From the NCBI GenBank assembly GCA_948444865.1, contig CAOJVE010000001.1, positions 1,372 to 65,371 of the forward strand: a DNA stretch of 64,000 bases, in the 5' to 3' direction. A program made the translations under genes and the position numbers. The notes beneath the pieces were generated by a model, which was not told the DNA's origin, did no database searches, and saw only the letters and a list, made by a program, of their open reading frames with translations. Origin of the DNA: an uncultured Lachnospiraceae bacterium (lineage in GTDB: Bacteria; Bacillota; Clostridia; Lachnospirales; Lachnospiraceae). This document shows positions 3 through 5,380 of this stretch, in pieces; the stretch's first letter is position 1; every line of letters begins with the position of its first letter.

Positions 3-1535
3 GGCACAGAGATCACTTTGTTCCTGGGCGAATCCAGCGTGGAGTTTTCCAACGAATACCGCGCCCGGGAAGTCCTCGACAAATACTGCTCCTTCATGCC
101 GGTGAACATTTACTTAAGCAAAGCCGGCGGCGAGCAGGAATATGAAACCATCGACGAGGATGAGCTTTTAGACGACGACGTGATCGTGGAGCGCATCCAT
201 GAGGAGGCCAAAACCGAGGAAAAAGAAAACGAAAACGGCGAGAAAGAAACGGTGGAGATTTCCCCGGCCAGGGATCGGGTGAAAATCAACAAACGCCCGA
301 CTTCCATCAGCGAGCCGCAGCCCCTGTGGACCAAGCATCCCAACGAGTGCGCCGACGAGGATTACAAAGAATTTTACCAGAAGACATTTATGGACTTCAA
401 GGAGCCTCTGTTCTGGATTCACCTGAACATGGACTACCCCTTCAACCTGAAAGGAATCCTGTATTTTCCGAAGATTAACACGGAGTACGATTCCATCGAG
501 GGAACCATCAAGCTGTACAACAACCAGGTGTTCATCGCCGACAATATTAAGGAAGTCATCCCGGAATTCCTGATGCTCCTTAAGGGCGTCATCGACTGCC
601 CCGACTTGCCGCTGAACGTGTCCCGAAGCGCGCTGCAAAACGACGGATTCGTGAAGAAAATCTCCGAGTACATCACCAAGAAGGTGGCGGACAAGCTCAC
701 CGGCATGTGCAAGACCCAGCGGGAGGACTACGAGTCCTACTGGGACGACATCAGCCCCTTTATCAAATTCGGCTGCGTCAAAGACGACAAATTCTCCGAA
801 CGGATGATGGACTACATCCTGTTCAAAAACCTGGACGACAAATACCTGTCCTTAAAAGACTGCCTGGAGAAAAACAGCGCGCCGGAAGACAAGGAGGAGA
901 CAGCTTCGGATGAAAAAAAGGACGAGGACGTAAAGAAAACCACGATTTTCTACGTAACCGACCCCGTGCAGCAGAGCCAGTACATCAACCTGTTTAAGGA
1001 GCAGGGCCTGGACGCGGTGTATTTACAGCACAACATCGACAACGCCTTCATCTCCCACATCGAACGCCTCAATGACAAGGTGAAGTTCCAGCGCATCGAC
1101 TCCGATATGACCGAAGAAATCGTAGAAAACGACGCGGACGAGGAGACGACCAAAGCGCTCACCGACCTGTTCCAAAAGGAACTGAATAACGACAAGCTCA
1201 ACGTGAAGGTGGAAAACTTAAAGAACGAAAGCATCTCTTCCATGATCACTCTGGAAGAAGAAAGCCGCCGGATGCAGGAAATGATGAAAATGTACAGCAT
1301 GGGCGGCATGGGCATGGGCGACCCATCCATGTTCGGCGGCAAAGAAACCCTGATCCTCAACGCCAAAAATCCGCTGGTGCAGTATCTGGCCGCTCACGCA
1401 GATTCCGAGCACGCCCATATGATCTGTGAGCAGCTCTACGACCTGGCCATGATCAGCCACAAACCGCTGGCGCCGGAAGCCATGACCAAGTTTATTGCCC
1501 GGAGCAATGAGATTATGATGCTTTTGACGAAATAG
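3..1535 (+). CDS. htpG: Hsp90-family chaperone HtpG; 5' part lies outside the window
   Basis: The frame is open from base 3 (GTEITLFL). It carries the HtpG motifs PLWTK, LKGILYFP and CPDLPLNVSRSALQ. Confidence 0.95.
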   Translation, partial: GTEITLFLGESSVEFSNEYRAREVLDKYCSFMPVNIYLSKAGGEQEYETIDEDELLDDDVIVERIHEEAKTEEKENENGEKETVEISPARDRVKINKRPTSISEPQPLWTKHPNECADEDYKEFYQKTFMDFKEPLFWIHLNMDYPFNLKGILYFPKINTEYDSIEGTIKLYNNQVFIADNIKEVIPEFLMLLKGVIDCPDLPLNVSRSALQNDGFVKKISEYITKKVADKLTGMCKTQREDYESYWDDISPFIKFGCVKDDKFSERMMDYILFKNLDDKYLSLKDCLEKNSAPEDKEETASDEKKDEDVKKTTIFYVTDPVQQSQYINLFKEQGLDAVYLQHNIDNAFISHIERLNDKVKFQRIDSDMTEEIVENDADEETTKALTDLFQKELNNDKLNVKVENLKNESISSMITLEEESRRMQEMMKMYSMGGMGMGDPSMFGGKETLILNAKNPLVQYLAAHADSEHAHMICEQLYDLAMISHKPLAPEAMTKFIARSNEIMMLLTK

Positions 1536-1543
1536 GGAGTGAG

Positions 1544-1576
1544 AAAAAACCGCTGACGGGATGTCGGCGGTTTTTT
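1544..1576. terminator. Bidirectional intrinsic terminator between convergent htpG and the rloB-like gene
   Basis: AAAAAACCGCTGAC-loop-GTCGGCGGTTTTTT: a hairpin with an A-tract on one side and a T-tract on the other. Confidence 0.85.
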
Positions 1577-1582
1577 CCTTAT

Positions 1583-2266
1583 TCACTCATCTAAATACAT
1601 TTTTAACTCCTCCACCAGTTTATGCACCATTGTGCCTGGGTCATATTCCGATGGTTTATATACGCCCTTTTCAAACTTTTCCATTCTGCGCTTCGCATTT
1701 CTGATCGCACTGGCTACGCCGTCATGGATATTAACCAAATTATAAATATCTTCATAGTTTTTCCGATATTTCCCATCCCCTATTTTGTACTGCCTGAAAA
1801 TTTCACTCAGCTTTTTATTCCATTCATCTCTGTGCAATGCAGCATCACTGTAATAAAAATGCAGATATAACCAATACTCAAAAGATTGATTGCTCCATGC
1901 GCACTTATAGCCTTTATCCGCACACGCCTCTATAGCCCAGTCAAAATCCTTAAAATCATCTTTATCAAATACAATCCATACATTTTGATATATGATTTTC
2001 GCTTCCTTTACAATCTGATCGGCATGCGCAATCAGTCTTCCTGGTGAGCATCCCTTACCATAAATATCAATCAATGGCAGCTCAATTACATCCACGTTGC
2101 CCCCGACTTTTTCTTCAATCTTTTTCTGCAATCCTCTAAAATACAATGGTTCGGTGCGCTTTCCCTCCGTCACGATCAAATAAGAGTTCGCCTTGGGCGT
2201 TTTATATTCACAACGCCTTTCCTTCCTGTCTGCCCGCCGCTTTTTAAATAAGTCATCGGAACCCAT
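1583..2266 (-). CDS. RloB-family protein (TOPRIM-like fold)
   Basis: Motifs LIVTEGKRTEPLYF, VFDKDD and SNQSFEYWLYLHF. It abuts the upstream ATPase gene (stop codon immediately followed by ATG). Confidence 0.8.
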   Translation of the reverse strand: MGSDDLFKKRRADRKERRCEYKTPKANSYLIVTEGKRTEPLYFRGLQKKIEEKVGGNVDVIELPLIDIYGKGCSPGRLIAHADQIVKEAKIIYQNVWIVFDKDDFKDFDWAIEACADKGYKCAWSNQSFEYWLYLHFYYSDAALHRDEWNKKLSEIFRQYKIGDGKYRKNYEDIYNLVNIHDGVASAIRNAKRRMEKFEKGVYKPSEYDPGTMVHKLVEELKMYLDE

Positions 2267-3463
2267 CTATTCACCTTCTTTCAGAACGAATTCTTTCAGA
2301 AGCGGAATCCCTCCATATACGCCGGCCAAATAATCTTTTTCAAAAGATGCGTCAGACCGGACTTTGAAATCAGACAGCGCAGTTAATTGAGAATATCCAT
2401 ATTCGTCTTTTTGGACAAACCAAATCTGATCCCTCCGAAAAAACTTTTTGTCCATCAAGGTTGTATCATGGGTGGTATAAATTAATTGCGCCTGGGAATT
2501 ATTATTGTAAAATAAATCTATAATAAATTTTAACAGCAAAGGATGAAGCTTTACATTTAACTCATCCACAAACATAGAACGATCCGTCAAAATTGTGATT
2601 CGCACATATATATACAGCATAATGCTTTTTATGGTTCCCTCTGACTCAAAAAACAGCCCTAAAGGATGCAGTTCTCCATCCTTCCCCAGATGAAACGTCG
2701 TAAACGTCACTTCCTTTTCACGGTCATCGTAAACGATATCCTTTATACCCGAATCAATAGCTTTTAAAAATTCCAACAGTTTTTGTTTCTCCTCGTCTAT
2801 AATATCAGGCAAAAAAGATTCCAATATTCTTGTATCTTCACAAAAATCAGTTGAAACAACCAGCGTATCCATTATTCCTGCATATACACATTTAAAGATT
2901 TTCGTTTTTAATCTTAATTTATTAAAAAAAGACAATGCCAAAGTCTCAACCGGAATCTGCTCTTTATACATCTGACATTCATCCCTCGCCACAGGCCCAA
3001 ATTCCACTGTTTCCGCATTCCTCTCGAAAACAATTGCCTTTCTGTTCGTCCGCAGACTCTTTCTATATAACCATTCTGCTGCGATATGCTCTGCATTGTA
3101 TACAAATCCATAACGATACTCGAACTCTCCCAAGATTTCGACTACTTCAAATTCAGAATTCTCATCCTGATTTTCCTCAAATGAAAACGGTTCATAATAC
3201 CTTTCGATTGCTGTGCTTTTCTCTATGTCATCATTGTTGAATGATTCCATAATAATCGACTGAAAATATTTCATAGCTAACCATAAATTTGATTTTCCGC
3301 TCGCATTCGCTCCATAGATCGCCGCCACCCGAAGAAATTTCTCTTTTGTTCCATTGTCAATCAAATTGCACGCGTGCTCTTTGTATGCGTGAATCGCTGT
3401 CATGTCCAATGTGGTTTCTTCTCTAAACGATAAAACATTTTTCAGCGTAAACTGTACTAACAT
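2267..3463 (-). CDS. ABC-type AAA ATPase (AAA_15/AAA_21, RloA-like)
   Basis: Walker A GANASGKSN, signature-like ESEGT, Walker B FVDEL, HP motif, H-loop TTHD and FRRDQIWFVQK. The sequence is AT-rich. Confidence 0.85.
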   Translation of the reverse strand: MLVQFTLKNVLSFREETTLDMTAIHAYKEHACNLIDNGTKEKFLRVAAIYGANASGKSNLWLAMKYFQSIIMESFNNDDIEKSTAIERYYEPFSFEENQDENSEFEVVEILGEFEYRYGFVYNAEHIAAEWLYRKSLRTNRKAIVFERNAETVEFGPVARDECQMYKEQIPVETLALSFFNKLRLKTKIFKCVYAGIMDTLVVSTDFCEDTRILESFLPDIIDEEKQKLLEFLKAIDSGIKDIVYDDREKEVTFTTFHLGKDGELHPLGLFFESEGTIKSIMLYIYVRITILTDRSMFVDELNVKLHPLLLKFIIDLFYNNNSQAQLIYTTHDTTLMDKKFFRRDQIWFVQKDEYGYSQLTALSDFKVRSDASFEKDYLAGVYGGIPLLKEFVLKEGE

Positions 3464-3501
3464 ATCGCACTATCACCTAATTTCCTATACTTTAACTATA
3501 T

Positions 3502-3529
3502 AGTATAATCATTTCATATCCTATGTCAA
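3502..3529 (-). promoter_or_regulatory. SigA-type promoter for the ATPase-RloB pair
   Basis: TTGACA-16 nt-TATACT on the minus strand, upstream of the start at 3463. Confidence 0.6.
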
Positions 3530-3565
3530 TATTTTTGAGAAAATCCCACAATTTTATTCGTATAA

Positions 3566-4957
3566 TTACAGTTCCAAAATACTCCGCGCCACGCTAATCC
3601 CATTGGCGCTGGCCTGCTGCAGTCCCCGCGTCACCGACGCGCCGTCGCCGATGGCCCGCAGGCCTTTCACATTTGTCTCAAAGCCCGCGTCCACCGCCAC
3701 CTTATTGGAATAGAATTTGACCTCCACCCCGTAAAGCAGGGTTTCATCGCTGGCGATTCCCGGCGTCACCTTATCCAGCGCGAAGATCATTTCCTCGATG
3801 TCCACCATGATCCGGTGGGGGAACGCCAAAGAGAGATCGCCTGGCACTGCGTCTTTTAAGGTGGGAATCAGGTTGTTGCGCCCCAGCCTTTCCTCGGTGG
3901 TGCGGCGGCCTCTGCGGAAATCGCCGAAGGTCTGCACCATGATTTTCCCATCGCAGAGCATATTGCTGAGCCGGGCGATGTGCTTTCCATATTCGATGGG
4001 GCTTTTGAACGGCTTCGTAAAGTTCTTGGACACCAGCAGGGCAAAATTCGTGTTGTCGGTTTTGTATTCCTTGGACTTGTAGGCGTGGCCGTTGACCACC
4101 GCCAGGCCGCCCTCATAATATTCCGTGGCCACTTCCCCCGACGGGTTGGTGCAGAACGTCCGCACTTTGTCGTCGAAGGTGGGCGTATAATAGATCAATT
4201 TCGCCTCGTACAGGTTTTTATTTAAGGCTTCCATCACCTCGTCCCGGACTTCCACCCGCACGCCCACGTCCACGGTGCCCACCCGGGTTTCGATCCCGTG
4301 TTTTAGGCAAATGTGGCTGAGCCATTCCGCGCCTTCCCGGCCCACGGCCGCCACCACCTGGCCCGCGTAATATTTCTGGCCAGCCTGAGTCTGCACCCCT
4401 ATGGCCTGCCCATCCTCGATGAGAATGTCCTCCACCATGGAGTTAAAGAGCATCTCCACCCCTTTTTCCTGGAGGTGGCGCTGCAGCCGCTGGTAAATCT
4501 TATAGCCCTCCTCGGTGCCCAGATGGCGAATAGGGCATTCCACCAGCTTTAGGTTGGCGTTGATGGCCTTGCGGCGGATCTCCCGGATCTCGGCCTCCTT
4601 GCCCACGCCGTACACATGGGCGTCCGCCCCGAATTTCAGGTAAATATCGTCGGATTCTTTTAGAAGCTCCACAGTCTTTTCGTATCCCAGGATTTCCGGC
4701 AGATTGCCGCCCACGTCCGGCGACAGCGACAGCTTTCCGTCGGAAAAAGCGCCGGCCCCCGCGAATCCCGTGGTAATGGAACAGGGCTGACAGCCCACGC
4801 ATTCTTTGGTTTTCCGTTTGGGGCACTGCCGCTTCTCGATGGAACGCCCTTTCTCAATCATCAAAATGCGCATGTCCGGCCGTTTCTCAATCAACTCGTA
4901 CGCGCAGAAAATCGCCGACGGCCCGGCGCCAATCATAATCACATCGTATGCATTCAT
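3566..4957 (-). CDS. NAD(P)/FAD-dependent oxidoreductase (COG2509-like) with a Cys cluster
   Basis: N-terminal YDVIMIGAGP dinucleotide-binding motif, CPKRKTKECVGCQPC, GFAGAGAFSDGK and C-terminal AIGDGASVTRGL. The start was reassigned from the ORF track to 4957 (or 4969) behind an AGAGG/AAAGG RBS. Confidence 0.8.
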   Translation of the reverse strand: MNAYDVIMIGAGPSAIFCAYELIEKRPDMRILMIEKGRSIEKRQCPKRKTKECVGCQPCSITTGFAGAGAFSDGKLSLSPDVGGNLPEILGYEKTVELLKESDDIYLKFGADAHVYGVGKEAEIREIRRKAINANLKLVECPIRHLGTEEGYKIYQRLQRHLQEKGVEMLFNSMVEDILIEDGQAIGVQTQAGQKYYAGQVVAAVGREGAEWLSHICLKHGIETRVGTVDVGVRVEVRDEVMEALNKNLYEAKLIYYTPTFDDKVRTFCTNPSGEVATEYYEGGLAVVNGHAYKSKEYKTDNTNFALLVSKNFTKPFKSPIEYGKHIARLSNMLCDGKIMVQTFGDFRRGRRTTEERLGRNNLIPTLKDAVPGDLSLAFPHRIMVDIEEMIFALDKVTPGIASDETLLYGVEVKFYSNKVAVDAGFETNVKGLRAIGDGASVTRGLQQASANGISVARSILEL

Positions 4958-5042
4958 AATCCCATCCATCCTTTCCTCTTCTTGCCTCCTATTATACCCC
5001 AAAATCGTTTTCGGGAACAGGCCCGCGGACCCATATTTCCCT

Positions 5043-5071: not shown

Positions 5072-5167
5072 TTGATAGCCGATGGAATAAGCGCGGGAAA
5101 TTGCGGGGCTGCCGAAAAGGTCGTCTCGCAATCGCCTGAAGATAACAGATGAAAAGGAGTGTGGATA

Positions 5168-5380
5168 ATGGGTAAAAAAAAGGAAAAGGAAATCAACCTG
5201 AAAGACCTGACGCCCCAGGAGAAGCTGAAGTACGAGATCGCCGAGGAGCTGGGGCTTTTGGATCAGGTTTTGGAAAAGGGCTGGAAGAGCCTGCCCGCCA
5301 AGGACACCGGGCGCATCGGCGGGCTGATGACCCGCCGGAAGAAAATGCTGGAAAACGCCCAGAACGCTCTCAAAAATTAA
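5168..5380 (+). CDS. Small acid-soluble spore protein, alpha/beta type
   Basis: KLKYEIAEELGL...GRIGGLMT matches the SASP pattern. RBS AAGGAG precedes the ATG at 5168. Confidence 0.85.
   Translation: MGKKKEKEINLKDLTPQEKLKYEIAEELGLLDQVLEKGWKSLPAKDTGRIGGLMTRRKKMLENAQNALKN

What the first reader, a model, noticed from the sequence alone, without database searches (positions are those of the whole stretch)
1583..3529. AT-rich ABC-ATPase + RloB/TOPRIM-like cassette: candidate PARIS-like anti-phage system
Seen: two translationally coupled genes (stop immediately followed by ATG) with their own TTGACA/TATACT promoter, visibly more AT-rich than the flanks, placed between housekeeping genes. The ATPase has full ABC motifs. 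The partner has TEGKRTE plus FDKDD, the Glu and DxD arrangement of TOPRIM nucleases. Known: ABC ATPase + TOPRIM effector is the architecture of PARIS (AriA/AriB) and related abortive-infection systems, and RloA/RloB were first noted in restriction-modification loci. Inference: a horizontally acquired stand-alone defence or toxin module whose mechanism is not established.
Basis: partly seen in the sequence, partly recalled or inferred. Interest (0 to 1): 0.62.

Follow-up and report, generated by a model that had tools for sequence, protein, structure and literature searches.

The report
AbiL-type phage-defence cassette in variable slot
This is a foreign, AT-rich two-gene unit (an ATP-driven sensor plus a small nuclease-like partner) of the known but mechanistically unsolved AbiL anti-phage family, and two sister species carry other defence genes at the same spot, so it is a clear but fairly ordinary find.

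Summary
On the minus strand, a 398-aa ABC ATPase (3463-2267) is followed directly (TAG then ATG) by a 227-aa RloB protein (2266-1583). A TTGACA-16-TATACT promoter lies upstream. GC is 37% against 53% for the window, and GC3 is 0.38-0.43 against 0.75-0.77 in the flanking genes.

PADLOC assigns the pair to AbiL (AbiLi 1.7e-84, AbiLii 1.6e-29). Pfam gives AAA_21 and a full-length RloB match. It is not PARIS proper: there is no DUF4435/AriB match, and the AriA model matches only the C-terminal ABC lobe.

The cassette fills exactly the gap between the htpG terminator and the stop codon of an FAD oxidoreductase. Two sister species (HtpG 97% identical) carry a type II restriction-modification pair or a PDC-M33 candidate system within the same borders. 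A more distant genome has the two genes 75 nt apart.

Homologous cassettes (about 75% identical) occur at unrelated loci in other gut Lachnospiraceae and carry the same promoter.

The Toprim assignment rests on the conserved E34 and D101-x-D103, the order of strands and helices in the model, and published analyses. Foldseek found no solved Toprim structure, and my profile-profile test was marginal (P 0.04).

Verdict: a new member of a known defence family, in a small recombinase-free defence hotspot. Interest is modest.

The parts
3530..3562 (-). AT-rich stretch upstream of the -35 box; 5' end of the transferable cassette, starting within a few bases of the oxidoreductase stop codon
   Evidence: It aligns with the same stretch in homologous cassettes at unrelated loci L014 and L017. 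Homology with the sister species resumes only at 3566.
3502..3529 (-). Sigma-70-type promoter TTGACA-16-TATACT
   Evidence: It matches 11 of 12 consensus positions. TCACAAAAATATTGACATA and the -10 box are conserved in L014 and L017.
3464..3501 (-). 5' leader with Shine-Dalgarno sequence AGGTGA 9 nt before the ATG
   Evidence: Read directly from the sequence.
2267..3463 (-). abiLi-type gene: 398-aa ABC ATPase of the AAA_21 / Rad50-SMC class; proposed sensor and antitoxin
   Evidence: PADLOC AbiLi 1.7e-84 and Pfam AAA_21 8e-24. Walker A, signature, Walker B and H-loop are intact and invariant. A low-confidence model matches Rad50, SMC and PtuA heads at E 3e-8 to 1e-4.
1583..2266 (-). abiLii-type gene: 227-aa RloB protein with a Toprim-like N-terminal half (E34, D101-x-D103) and a helical C-terminal half; proposed nuclease effector and toxin
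   Evidence: Pfam RloB 4.2e-42 over the whole profile and PADLOC AbiLii 1.6e-29. The AF2 model has pLDDT 89.9 with b1-a-b2-a-b3-a-b4 and then helices.
1543..1577 (.). Bidirectional intrinsic terminator hairpin shared by htpG (+) and the cassette (-); it belongs to the conserved flank, not to the cargo
   Evidence: Inverted repeat I4. Folding energy is -30.2 and -25.6 kcal/mol, z about -6.7 on both strands. It is conserved in the sister species. The simple terminator scan missed it.
3..1535 (+). Left flank: 3' part of htpG (Hsp90)
   Evidence: 97% identical in G005 and G009; Pfam HSP90 on the called gene in L042.
3566..4969 (-). Right flank: 467-aa FAD-dependent oxidoreductase
   Evidence: 92-95% identical in G005 and G009. 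Same-species metagenome contigs encode the identical protein with the cassette next to it.

Best explanation
The region is a self-contained AbiL-family anti-phage cassette of about 1.98 kb (window about 1586-3562). It consists of its own constitutive-type promoter and a tightly coupled bicistron. The first gene encodes an AbiLi ABC ATPase and the second an AbiLii/RloB protein. The cassette was acquired horizontally into the gap between the htpG terminator and the stop codon of an FAD oxidoreductase. That gap acts as a small recombinase-free defence slot in this group of mouse-gut Lachnospiraceae.

Shown here:
- Family membership by profile.
- Intact ATPase and acidic Toprim-type residues.
- Foreign composition.
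- Exact borders.
- Different defence cargo at the same borders in two sister species.
- Recurrence of the same promoter-plus-two-genes unit at unrelated loci.

Inferred mechanism (about 55%):
1. The two proteins are made in a fixed ratio and form a complex.
2. In that complex the ATPase oligomer holds the RloB nuclease inactive, acting as antitoxin and sensor.
3. A phage product or infection cue, read through the ATP-dependent ABC head, releases or activates RloB.
4. RloB's metal-dependent Toprim site (E34, D101, D103) cleaves nucleic acid and aborts the infection.
Whether the target is tRNA/RNA, as in PARIS, or DNA, as in OLD and Gabija, is open.
For: - Family: PADLOC AbiLi 1.7e-84 and AbiLii 1.6e-29; Pfam AAA_21 and full-length RloB.
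- Architecture: abutting stop and start with an internal Shine-Dalgarno sequence. Tight coupling is kept in relatives L002, L003, L004, L006, L014 and L017.
- Motifs: intact and conserved.
- Foreign origin: GC 0.37 against 0.53, GC3 0.38-0.43 against 0.75-0.77. No orthologue in 9 congeneric species.
- Borders: homology with G005 and G009 ends just after the shared htpG terminator and resumes at the oxidoreductase stop codon.
- Slot contents: G005 holds a D12 methyltransferase plus a type II restriction enzyme (REase_II 6e-118). G009 holds PDC-M33A/B (1e-52, 1.9e-16) plus one unassigned ORF. Both cargos are AT-rich and on the same strand.
- Empty state: L070 has the two genes convergent and 75 nt apart.
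- Mobility as a unit: the promoter is conserved in cassettes located after rpsI (L014) and after an Fe-hydrogenase gene (L017).
- Published support for the mechanism: a Clostridium algidicarnis RloB-like toxin was neutralised by its AAA ATPase in toxicity assays (PMC10440598). AbiL is a validated Lactococcus abortive-infection system grouped with PARIS (PMC13064643). RloB is described as a Toprim superfamily member with E and DxD (PMC12065111).
Against: - No function was tested for this cassette or for any member of its Lachnospiraceae clade.
- Foldseek found no significant solved structure for a confident RloB model. The best E was 0.018 and no Toprim was in the top 50. BFVD gave only another RloB protein, with a DnaG Toprim at E 0.07.
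- My profile-profile comparison with OLD-type Toprim domains is marginal: E 0.041, and 1 of 30 column shuffles scored as high.
- tblastn of the RloB protein listed no Lactococcus plasmid, nor did the listed rows of the ATPase search. Similarity to the founding AbiL therefore rests on PADLOC profiles alone, and the AbiLii profile is matched only over positions 15-89 of 170.
- The PARIS authors state that AbiL and RloAB are structurally distinct from PARIS, so a PARIS-like mechanism is an analogy.
- The ATPase model is of low confidence, pLDDT 61.
Confidence: 0.78

Rival explanations
1. The pair is mainly a toxin-antitoxin addiction module. It stabilises itself in the genome (RloB as toxin, ATPase as antitoxin) and plays no significant part in phage defence.
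For: A RloB-like toxin with an AAA antitoxin was validated as a toxin-antitoxin pair by toxicity neutralisation. A related AAA-neutralised pair gave no hit in an E. coli phage screen (PMC10440598). The cassette appears fixed in the same-species contigs seen.
Against: The same slot holds a restriction-modification system and a PADLOC candidate defence system in sister species. The founding AbiL has an abortive-infection phenotype. Toxin-antitoxin behaviour and defence are not exclusive, since PARIS is both.
Confidence: 0.1
2. It is an RloAB-type accessory of a type I restriction-modification system, as in Campylobacter, acting together with hsd genes.
For: Full-length Pfam RloB match. RloAB lies inside a type I R-M locus in Campylobacter.
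Against: No hsd gene is adjacent; the neighbours are htpG and an oxidoreductase. Homologous cassettes at other loci are also free-standing pairs.
Confidence: 0.05
3. It is a true PARIS (AriA/AriB) system that senses anti-restriction proteins and cleaves tRNA-Lys.
For: Same two-gene ABC ATPase plus Toprim-type architecture. The PADLOC AriA model hits at 5.8e-23.
Against: The AriA hit covers only residues 230-338 and is about 60 orders of magnitude weaker than the AbiLi hit. No DUF4435/AriB match was found even at E 10. AriA is not among the top 50 structural matches. The PARIS authors call AbiL structurally distinct.
Confidence: 0.02
4. It is a housekeeping Rad50/OLD-like DNA repair pair that happens to be AT-rich.
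For: The ATPase model resembles Rad50 and SMC heads.
Against: It is absent from all 9 congeneric species. Codon composition is foreign. It is replaced by R-M or PDC-M33 at identical borders. It has no long coiled coil and no Mre11-like partner.
Confidence: 0.02

Closest known systems
AbiL (AbiLi + AbiLii) of Lactococcus lactis plasmid pND861 (Deng, Liu and Dunn 1999), as modelled in PADLOC
   Same: Two adjacent co-directional genes, ATPase first. AAA_21-type ABC ATPase plus RloB-family partner. Both PADLOC models are matched strongly. It is a free-standing module with its own promoter.
   Different: It is chromosomal, in a gut Lachnospiraceae, not on a lactococcal plasmid. The ATPase is shorter: 398 aa against about 453 aa quoted for AbiLi in PMC13064643. 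No direct tblastn match to a Lactococcus record was listed. The phenotype is untested.
PARIS (AriA/AriB) of E. coli
   Same: An ABC ATPase of the AAA_15/21 group paired with a small Toprim-type effector. Probably toxin-antitoxin-like control of the nuclease by the ATPase. It is placed with AbiL in one ATPase phylogeny.
   Different: The effector is RloB (PF13707), not DUF4435. The ATPase matches AriA only in the C-terminal lobe. The trigger (Ocr for PARIS) and the target (tRNA-Lys for PARIS) are unknown here.
RloA/RloB of Campylobacter type I R-M loci
   Same: RloB family partner with a full-length Pfam match, next to an ATPase.
   Different: It is not embedded in an hsd locus here or in the homologous cassettes examined.
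NetFlax D29 (AAA antitoxin) with D44 (RloB-like TOPRIM_OLD toxin) of Clostridium algidicarnis (PMC10440598)
   Same: A clostridial two-gene AAA ATPase plus RloB-like pair. The toxicity of the small protein was neutralised by the ATPase in an experiment.
   Different: Sequence identity to this pair was not measured here. No phage phenotype was reported for it.
Core-gene-flanked defence hotspots (variable defence slots between conserved genes)
   Same: The borders are identical in three sister species, the defence cargos are different, all AT-rich and on one strand, and no integrase or repeats are present.
   Different: The slot is very small (2.0-3.6 kb, one system per genome). It is seen only in this narrow clade. 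More distant genera have a lipoprotein gene or nothing there.

Membership tests
AbiL (PADLOC/DefenseFinder sense) | AbiLi-type AAA_21 ABC ATPase | tested here: met
   PDLC02335 AbiLi 1.7e-84 over residues 1-393; Pfam AAA_21 8.1e-24.
AbiL (PADLOC/DefenseFinder sense) | AbiLii / RloB-family partner | tested here: met
   PDLC02337 AbiLii 1.6e-29, though only profile positions 15-89 of 170 are matched. Pfam RloB 4.2e-42 over 1-195 of 195.
AbiL (PADLOC/DefenseFinder sense) | The two genes adjacent, on the same strand, ATPase first | tested here: met
   TAG at 2269-2267 is followed by ATG at 2266-2264.
AbiL (PADLOC/DefenseFinder sense) | Direct pairwise similarity to the founding L. lactis AbiLi/AbiLii | tested here: inconclusive
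   tblastn against PLSDB listed no Lactococcus record for either protein at the thresholds used. The founder's sequence was not at hand for a direct comparison.
AbiL (PADLOC/DefenseFinder sense) | Abortive-infection phenotype against phage | not testable with these tools
   Needs cloning and phage challenge.
PARIS (AriA/AriB) | AriB effector with a DUF4435-type Toprim domain | tested here: not met
   No DUF4435 or AriB model matched in Pfam, even at E 10, or in PADLOC.
PARIS (AriA/AriB) | AriA-type ATPase over its full length | tested here: not met
   The AriA model PDLC02980 matches only residues 230-338 at 5.8e-23, against 1.7e-84 for AbiLi. AriA is absent from the top 50 fold matches.
Toprim superfamily | Conserved Glu after strand 1 and DxD after strand 3 of a b-a-b-a-b-a-b core | tested here: met
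   E34 follows b1 (29-33) and D101-x-D103 ends b3 (95-101) in a model with pLDDT 89.9. D101 is invariant and E34 and D103 are at least 90% conserved in 89 homologues.
Toprim superfamily | Significant fold or profile similarity to known Toprim domains | tested here: inconclusive
   Foldseek against PDB: best E 0.018, no Toprim in the top 50. BFVD: DnaG Toprim at rank 16, E 0.07. hhalign against 20 OLD-type Toprim domains: E 0.041 with E and DxD in register, and 1 of 30 shuffles scored as high. Publications assert membership.
RloAB (Campylobacter) | Location inside a type I restriction-modification (hsd) locus | tested here: not met
   The neighbours are htpG and an FAD oxidoreductase.
ABC ATPase, Rad50/SMC-like class | Walker A, ABC signature, Walker B and H-loop | tested here: met
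   GANASGKS 51-58, SEGT 274-277, MFVDE 297-301 and TTHD 330-333, all invariant. Fold matches to Rad50, SMC and PtuA at E 3e-8 to 1e-4 from a low-confidence model.
Type II toxin-antitoxin pair (AAA antitoxin with Toprim-like toxin) | The small protein is toxic alone and is neutralised by the ATPase | not testable with these tools
   Shown only for a Clostridium algidicarnis relative in PMC10440598.

The most novel reading that the evidence does not exclude
The junction between the htpG terminator and the oxidoreductase stop codon is a recombinase-free defence-swap site in a narrow clade of mouse-gut Lachnospiraceae. Promoter-carrying minimal cassettes (AbiL, type II R-M, PDC-M33) replace one another there, with borders exact to within a few bases. 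The Lachnospiraceae AbiL clade is a compact unit: a 398-aa ATPase without a long coiled coil, plus a 227-aa RloB protein whose fold has no significant match among solved structures. It may therefore work differently from PARIS in complex architecture, trigger or target.
Probability: 0.3. Interest if true: 0.5.

Novelty: new member of a known kind. Interest (0 to 1): 0.27.

Why it matters
AbiL-type pairs are abundant. RloB relatives form 3,754 clusters at 50% identity with E up to 0.001, and thousands of the 70-78% identical relatives listed are from gut metagenomes and MAGs. Yet no structure, trigger or target is known for any of them. This copy is a clean, minimal, promoter-complete unit of 1.98 kb that could be cloned as it stands. 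Its setting gives independent support from location: three sister species, one slot, three different defence cargos. It adds no new principle. It does offer a convenient test case for the AbiL mechanism and a small natural example of defence-cassette exchange without a visible mobile element.

Tried and rejected
1. PARIS membership: rejected, see the membership test.
2. Flanking repeats, integrase or transposase as the insertion mechanism: only short chance repeats and the terminator hairpin were found.
3. A link between AbiL cassettes and FAD oxidoreductases, because L017 also has one next to the pair: rejected, the two oxidoreductases are unrelated.
4. Sequence search of both proteins and of the RloB profile against PDB: nothing meaningful.
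5. Foldseek of the RloB model against PDB and BFVD: no Toprim match reached significance.
6. Profile-profile test against OLD-type Toprim domains, with trimmed versions and shuffle and reverse controls: marginal only.
7. ATPase structure: the alignment was too shallow (17 sequences) and gave pLDDT 61. It was used only for class-level assignment.
This was replaced by DNA alignment.
10. More distant congeners (G002, G003, G006, G008) do not share the htpG-oxidoreductase synteny and so say nothing about the slot.
Full report
**Observation**

The minus strand of window 1583-3529 carries two ORFs. One is 398 aa (3463..2267) and the other 227 aa (2266..1583). The first ends in TAG and the next triplet is the ATG of the second. 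GAAGGTGA lies just upstream, inside the first gene.

A TTGACA-16-TATACT promoter lies at 3529..3502. It matches 11 of 12 positions and is the best site in the region. Promoter-like sites as a class are not enriched over shuffles there.

The region is the deepest AT trough of the whole window. GC is 0.374 against 0.529, and the minimum of 0.36 is about 4 SD below the mean. Third-position GC is 0.38 and 0.43 against 0.77 and 0.75 in the flanking htpG and oxidoreductase genes.

**Identity**

Pfam gives AAA_21 (8e-24) for the large protein and a full-length RloB match (4.2e-42, profile 1-195 of 195) for the small one. PADLOC assigns them to AbiLi (1.7e-84) and AbiLii (1.6e-29). The next best ATPase model, AriA of PARIS, covers only residues 230-338 at 5.8e-23. 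No DUF4435/AriB or any other Toprim model matches the small protein, even at E 10. NCBIfam has no model for either protein.

The ATPase has Walker A GANASGKS (51-58), signature SEGT (274-277), Walker B MFVDE (297-301) and H-loop TTHD (330-333). All are invariant in relatives down to 28% identity.

In 89 RloB homologues of 30-57% identity, D101 is invariant. E34, G35, T38, E39, D103, S125, N126, E130, W132 and H136 are at least 90% conserved.

The pair is therefore a member of the AbiL family as defined by current defence-system profiles. It has the PARIS architecture but is not PARIS.

**Toprim question**

An AlphaFold2 model of RloB built on that alignment is confident (pLDDT 89.9, pTM 0.84). 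Its order of elements is b1 29-33, helix, b2 58-62, a disordered loop at 64-71, helix, b3 95-101, helix, b4 121-125, and then a helical C-terminal half. E34 sits right after b1 and D101-x-D103 at the end of b3. This is the Toprim placement described for RloB in PMC12065111.

Other tests were weaker:
- Foldseek found no significant solved structure (best E 0.018, no Toprim in the top 50).
- In BFVD it found only a phage RloB-like protein (1.5e-12). A DnaG Toprim domain came at rank 16 with E 0.07.
- I built a profile of 20 OLD-type Toprim domains from genomes of the same order and compared it with the RloB profile. hhalign aligned E with E, G with G and DxD with DxD, but at E 0.041.
- Trimming improved this to 0.008. 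One of 30 column-shuffled controls scored as high as the real comparison.
- Sequence and profile searches of PDB found nothing.

I therefore treat Toprim as supported by motif, topology and the literature, but not independently proven here.

**ATPase class**

The ATPase model is poor (pLDDT 61, from 17 sequences). It still matches Rad50, SMC and PtuA heads at E 3e-8 to 1e-4. That settles only the class. The part between Walker A and the signature contains no helix longer than about 25 residues, so a long coiled coil is unlikely, with the caveat of model quality.

**Locus**

None of 9 other species of the genus has an orthologue; the best match has E 3.6e-5 and 27% identity. The window's genome has one RloB gene.

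In the two closest species (HtpG 97% identical, oxidoreductase 92-95% identical) the same two core genes face each other with other cargo between them:
- G005 has a D12 adenine methyltransferase and a type II restriction enzyme (REase_II 6e-118).
- G009 has PDC-M33A (1e-52), PDC-M33B (1.9e-16) and an unassigned 257-aa ORF.

Both cargos are AT-rich and on the same strand as the AbiL genes.

Alignments place the borders precisely. Homology runs through the htpG stop codon and a shared terminator hairpin, and is lost within a few bases of the RloB stop codon. It resumes at the stop codon of the oxidoreductase.

The hairpin (1543-1577) folds at -30.2 and -25.6 kcal/mol on the two strands, with z about -6.7. 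It has an A-tract on one side and a T-tract on the other. It therefore serves as a bidirectional terminator for htpG and for whatever cargo sits in the slot. The simple terminator scan missed it.

No integrase, transposase or meaningful flanking repeat is present.

In more distant Lachnospiraceae with the same convergent gene pair, the gap holds a lipoprotein gene of ordinary composition. In L070 it holds only a 75-nt hairpin spacer, that is, an empty site.

Contigs from metagenomes that encode the identical oxidoreductase all carry the cassette wherever they are long enough. It therefore looks fixed in the species but variable in the genus. G005 carries a divergent AbiL pair elsewhere in its genome.

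**The cassette as a unit**

Thousands of protein clusters 70-78% identical to the two proteins exist, mostly from gut metagenomes and MAGs. Those that carry names are labelled Lachnospiraceae, Blautia or Muricomes.

Two such cassettes were read in context. One lies after rpsI, followed by an HD-domain protein and a NUDIX protein (L014). The other lies between an Fe-hydrogenase gene and an unrelated FAD oxidoreductase (L017). Both are free-standing pairs.

Their upstream regions align with the window's from about 60 nt before the -35 box through the promoter (TCACAAAAATATTGACATA, then the -10 box). Similarity stops at the RloB stop codon. The transferable unit is thus the promoter plus the two genes, without its own terminator.

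More distant relatives occur on clostridial and Bacteroidota plasmids, on small enterobacterial plasmids and in a few phages.

**Mechanism**

What is shown is the anatomy. The rest is inferred from relatives.
- AbiL of Lactococcus is an abortive-infection system acting after phage transcription. Reviews and the PARIS papers group it with ABC ATPase plus Toprim systems, but note that it is structurally distinct and mechanistically unsolved.
- A Clostridium algidicarnis RloB-like protein is toxic in E. coli and is neutralised by its AAA ATPase.

My best reading is as follows:
1. The two proteins are produced in a coupled way.
2. They form an ATPase-RloB complex in which the nuclease is held inactive.
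3. The ABC head senses a phage cue and releases or activates RloB.
4. RloB cleaves nucleic acid through E34, D101 and D103.

I give about 55% to this sensor/antitoxin plus nuclease/toxin scheme. I have no basis for choosing between RNA and DNA as the target.

**Comparison and novelty**

This is a new member of a known family in a new host and locus. Notes from this scan on other genomes describe similar AbiL-type cassettes in prophage and island hotspots. They agree with this reading, but they are not independent evidence.

The added value here has three parts:
- The exact borders.
- The three-way cargo swap in sister species, with an empty site in an outgroup.
- The finding that the promoter travels with the genes.

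Interest is modest (0.27).

**Limits**
- There was no direct comparison with the founding Lactococcus proteins.
- The ATPase model is poor.

Noticed in passing
L009 (G009:C40) 1077-4692, minus strand: The sister species G009 fills the same htpG/oxidoreductase slot with a PDC-M33A/B candidate defence pair (664 and 284 aa). It also has an overlapping 257-aa ORF with no match in Pfam, PADLOC or PHROGs. This may be a third component of an uncharacterised system.
   Followed up: partly
L008 (G005:C5) 1504-3643, minus strand: The sister species G005 fills the slot with a D12-class adenine methyltransferase and a restriction enzyme made of DUF6996, DUF6997 and DUF7226 (PADLOC REase_II 6e-118).
   Followed up: partly
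L006 (G005:C7) 278-3177, minus strand: G005 carries a divergent AbiL pair (409 and 221 aa; AbiLi 4.8e-72, AbiLii 1.7e-25) at another locus. It is followed by an overlapping 334-aa ORF with no PADLOC match.
   Followed up: partly
window 5159-5380 (+): A small alpha/beta-type acid-soluble spore protein gene lies next to the oxidoreductase. Pfam SASP is recorded on the called 70-aa gene in same-species contigs. This suggests a spore-forming lifestyle.
   Followed up: partly
window 1537-1590: The outer stem of the shared terminator (GAGUGA paired with UCACUC) overlaps the last codon and stop codon of RloB (GAG TGA). Homologous cassettes elsewhere end in GAA TAG. The recombination junction therefore seems to lie within the last few bases of the gene, at a short stretch of similarity.
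   Followed up: partly
L014 6719-8798 (+): In another Lachnospiraceae MAG the homologous AbiL cassette is followed by an HD plus HD_assoc protein (505 aa, dGTPase-like) and a NUDIX protein. This may be a small defence island located after the rplM-rpsI genes.
   Followed up: no
plasmid hits H4-H18 (E. coli, Klebsiella and Enterobacter plasmids of 4-7 kb): ATPases about 29% identical over their full length to the window's AbiLi sit on very small enterobacterial plasmids. One is annotated as an abortive infection protein.
   Followed up: no
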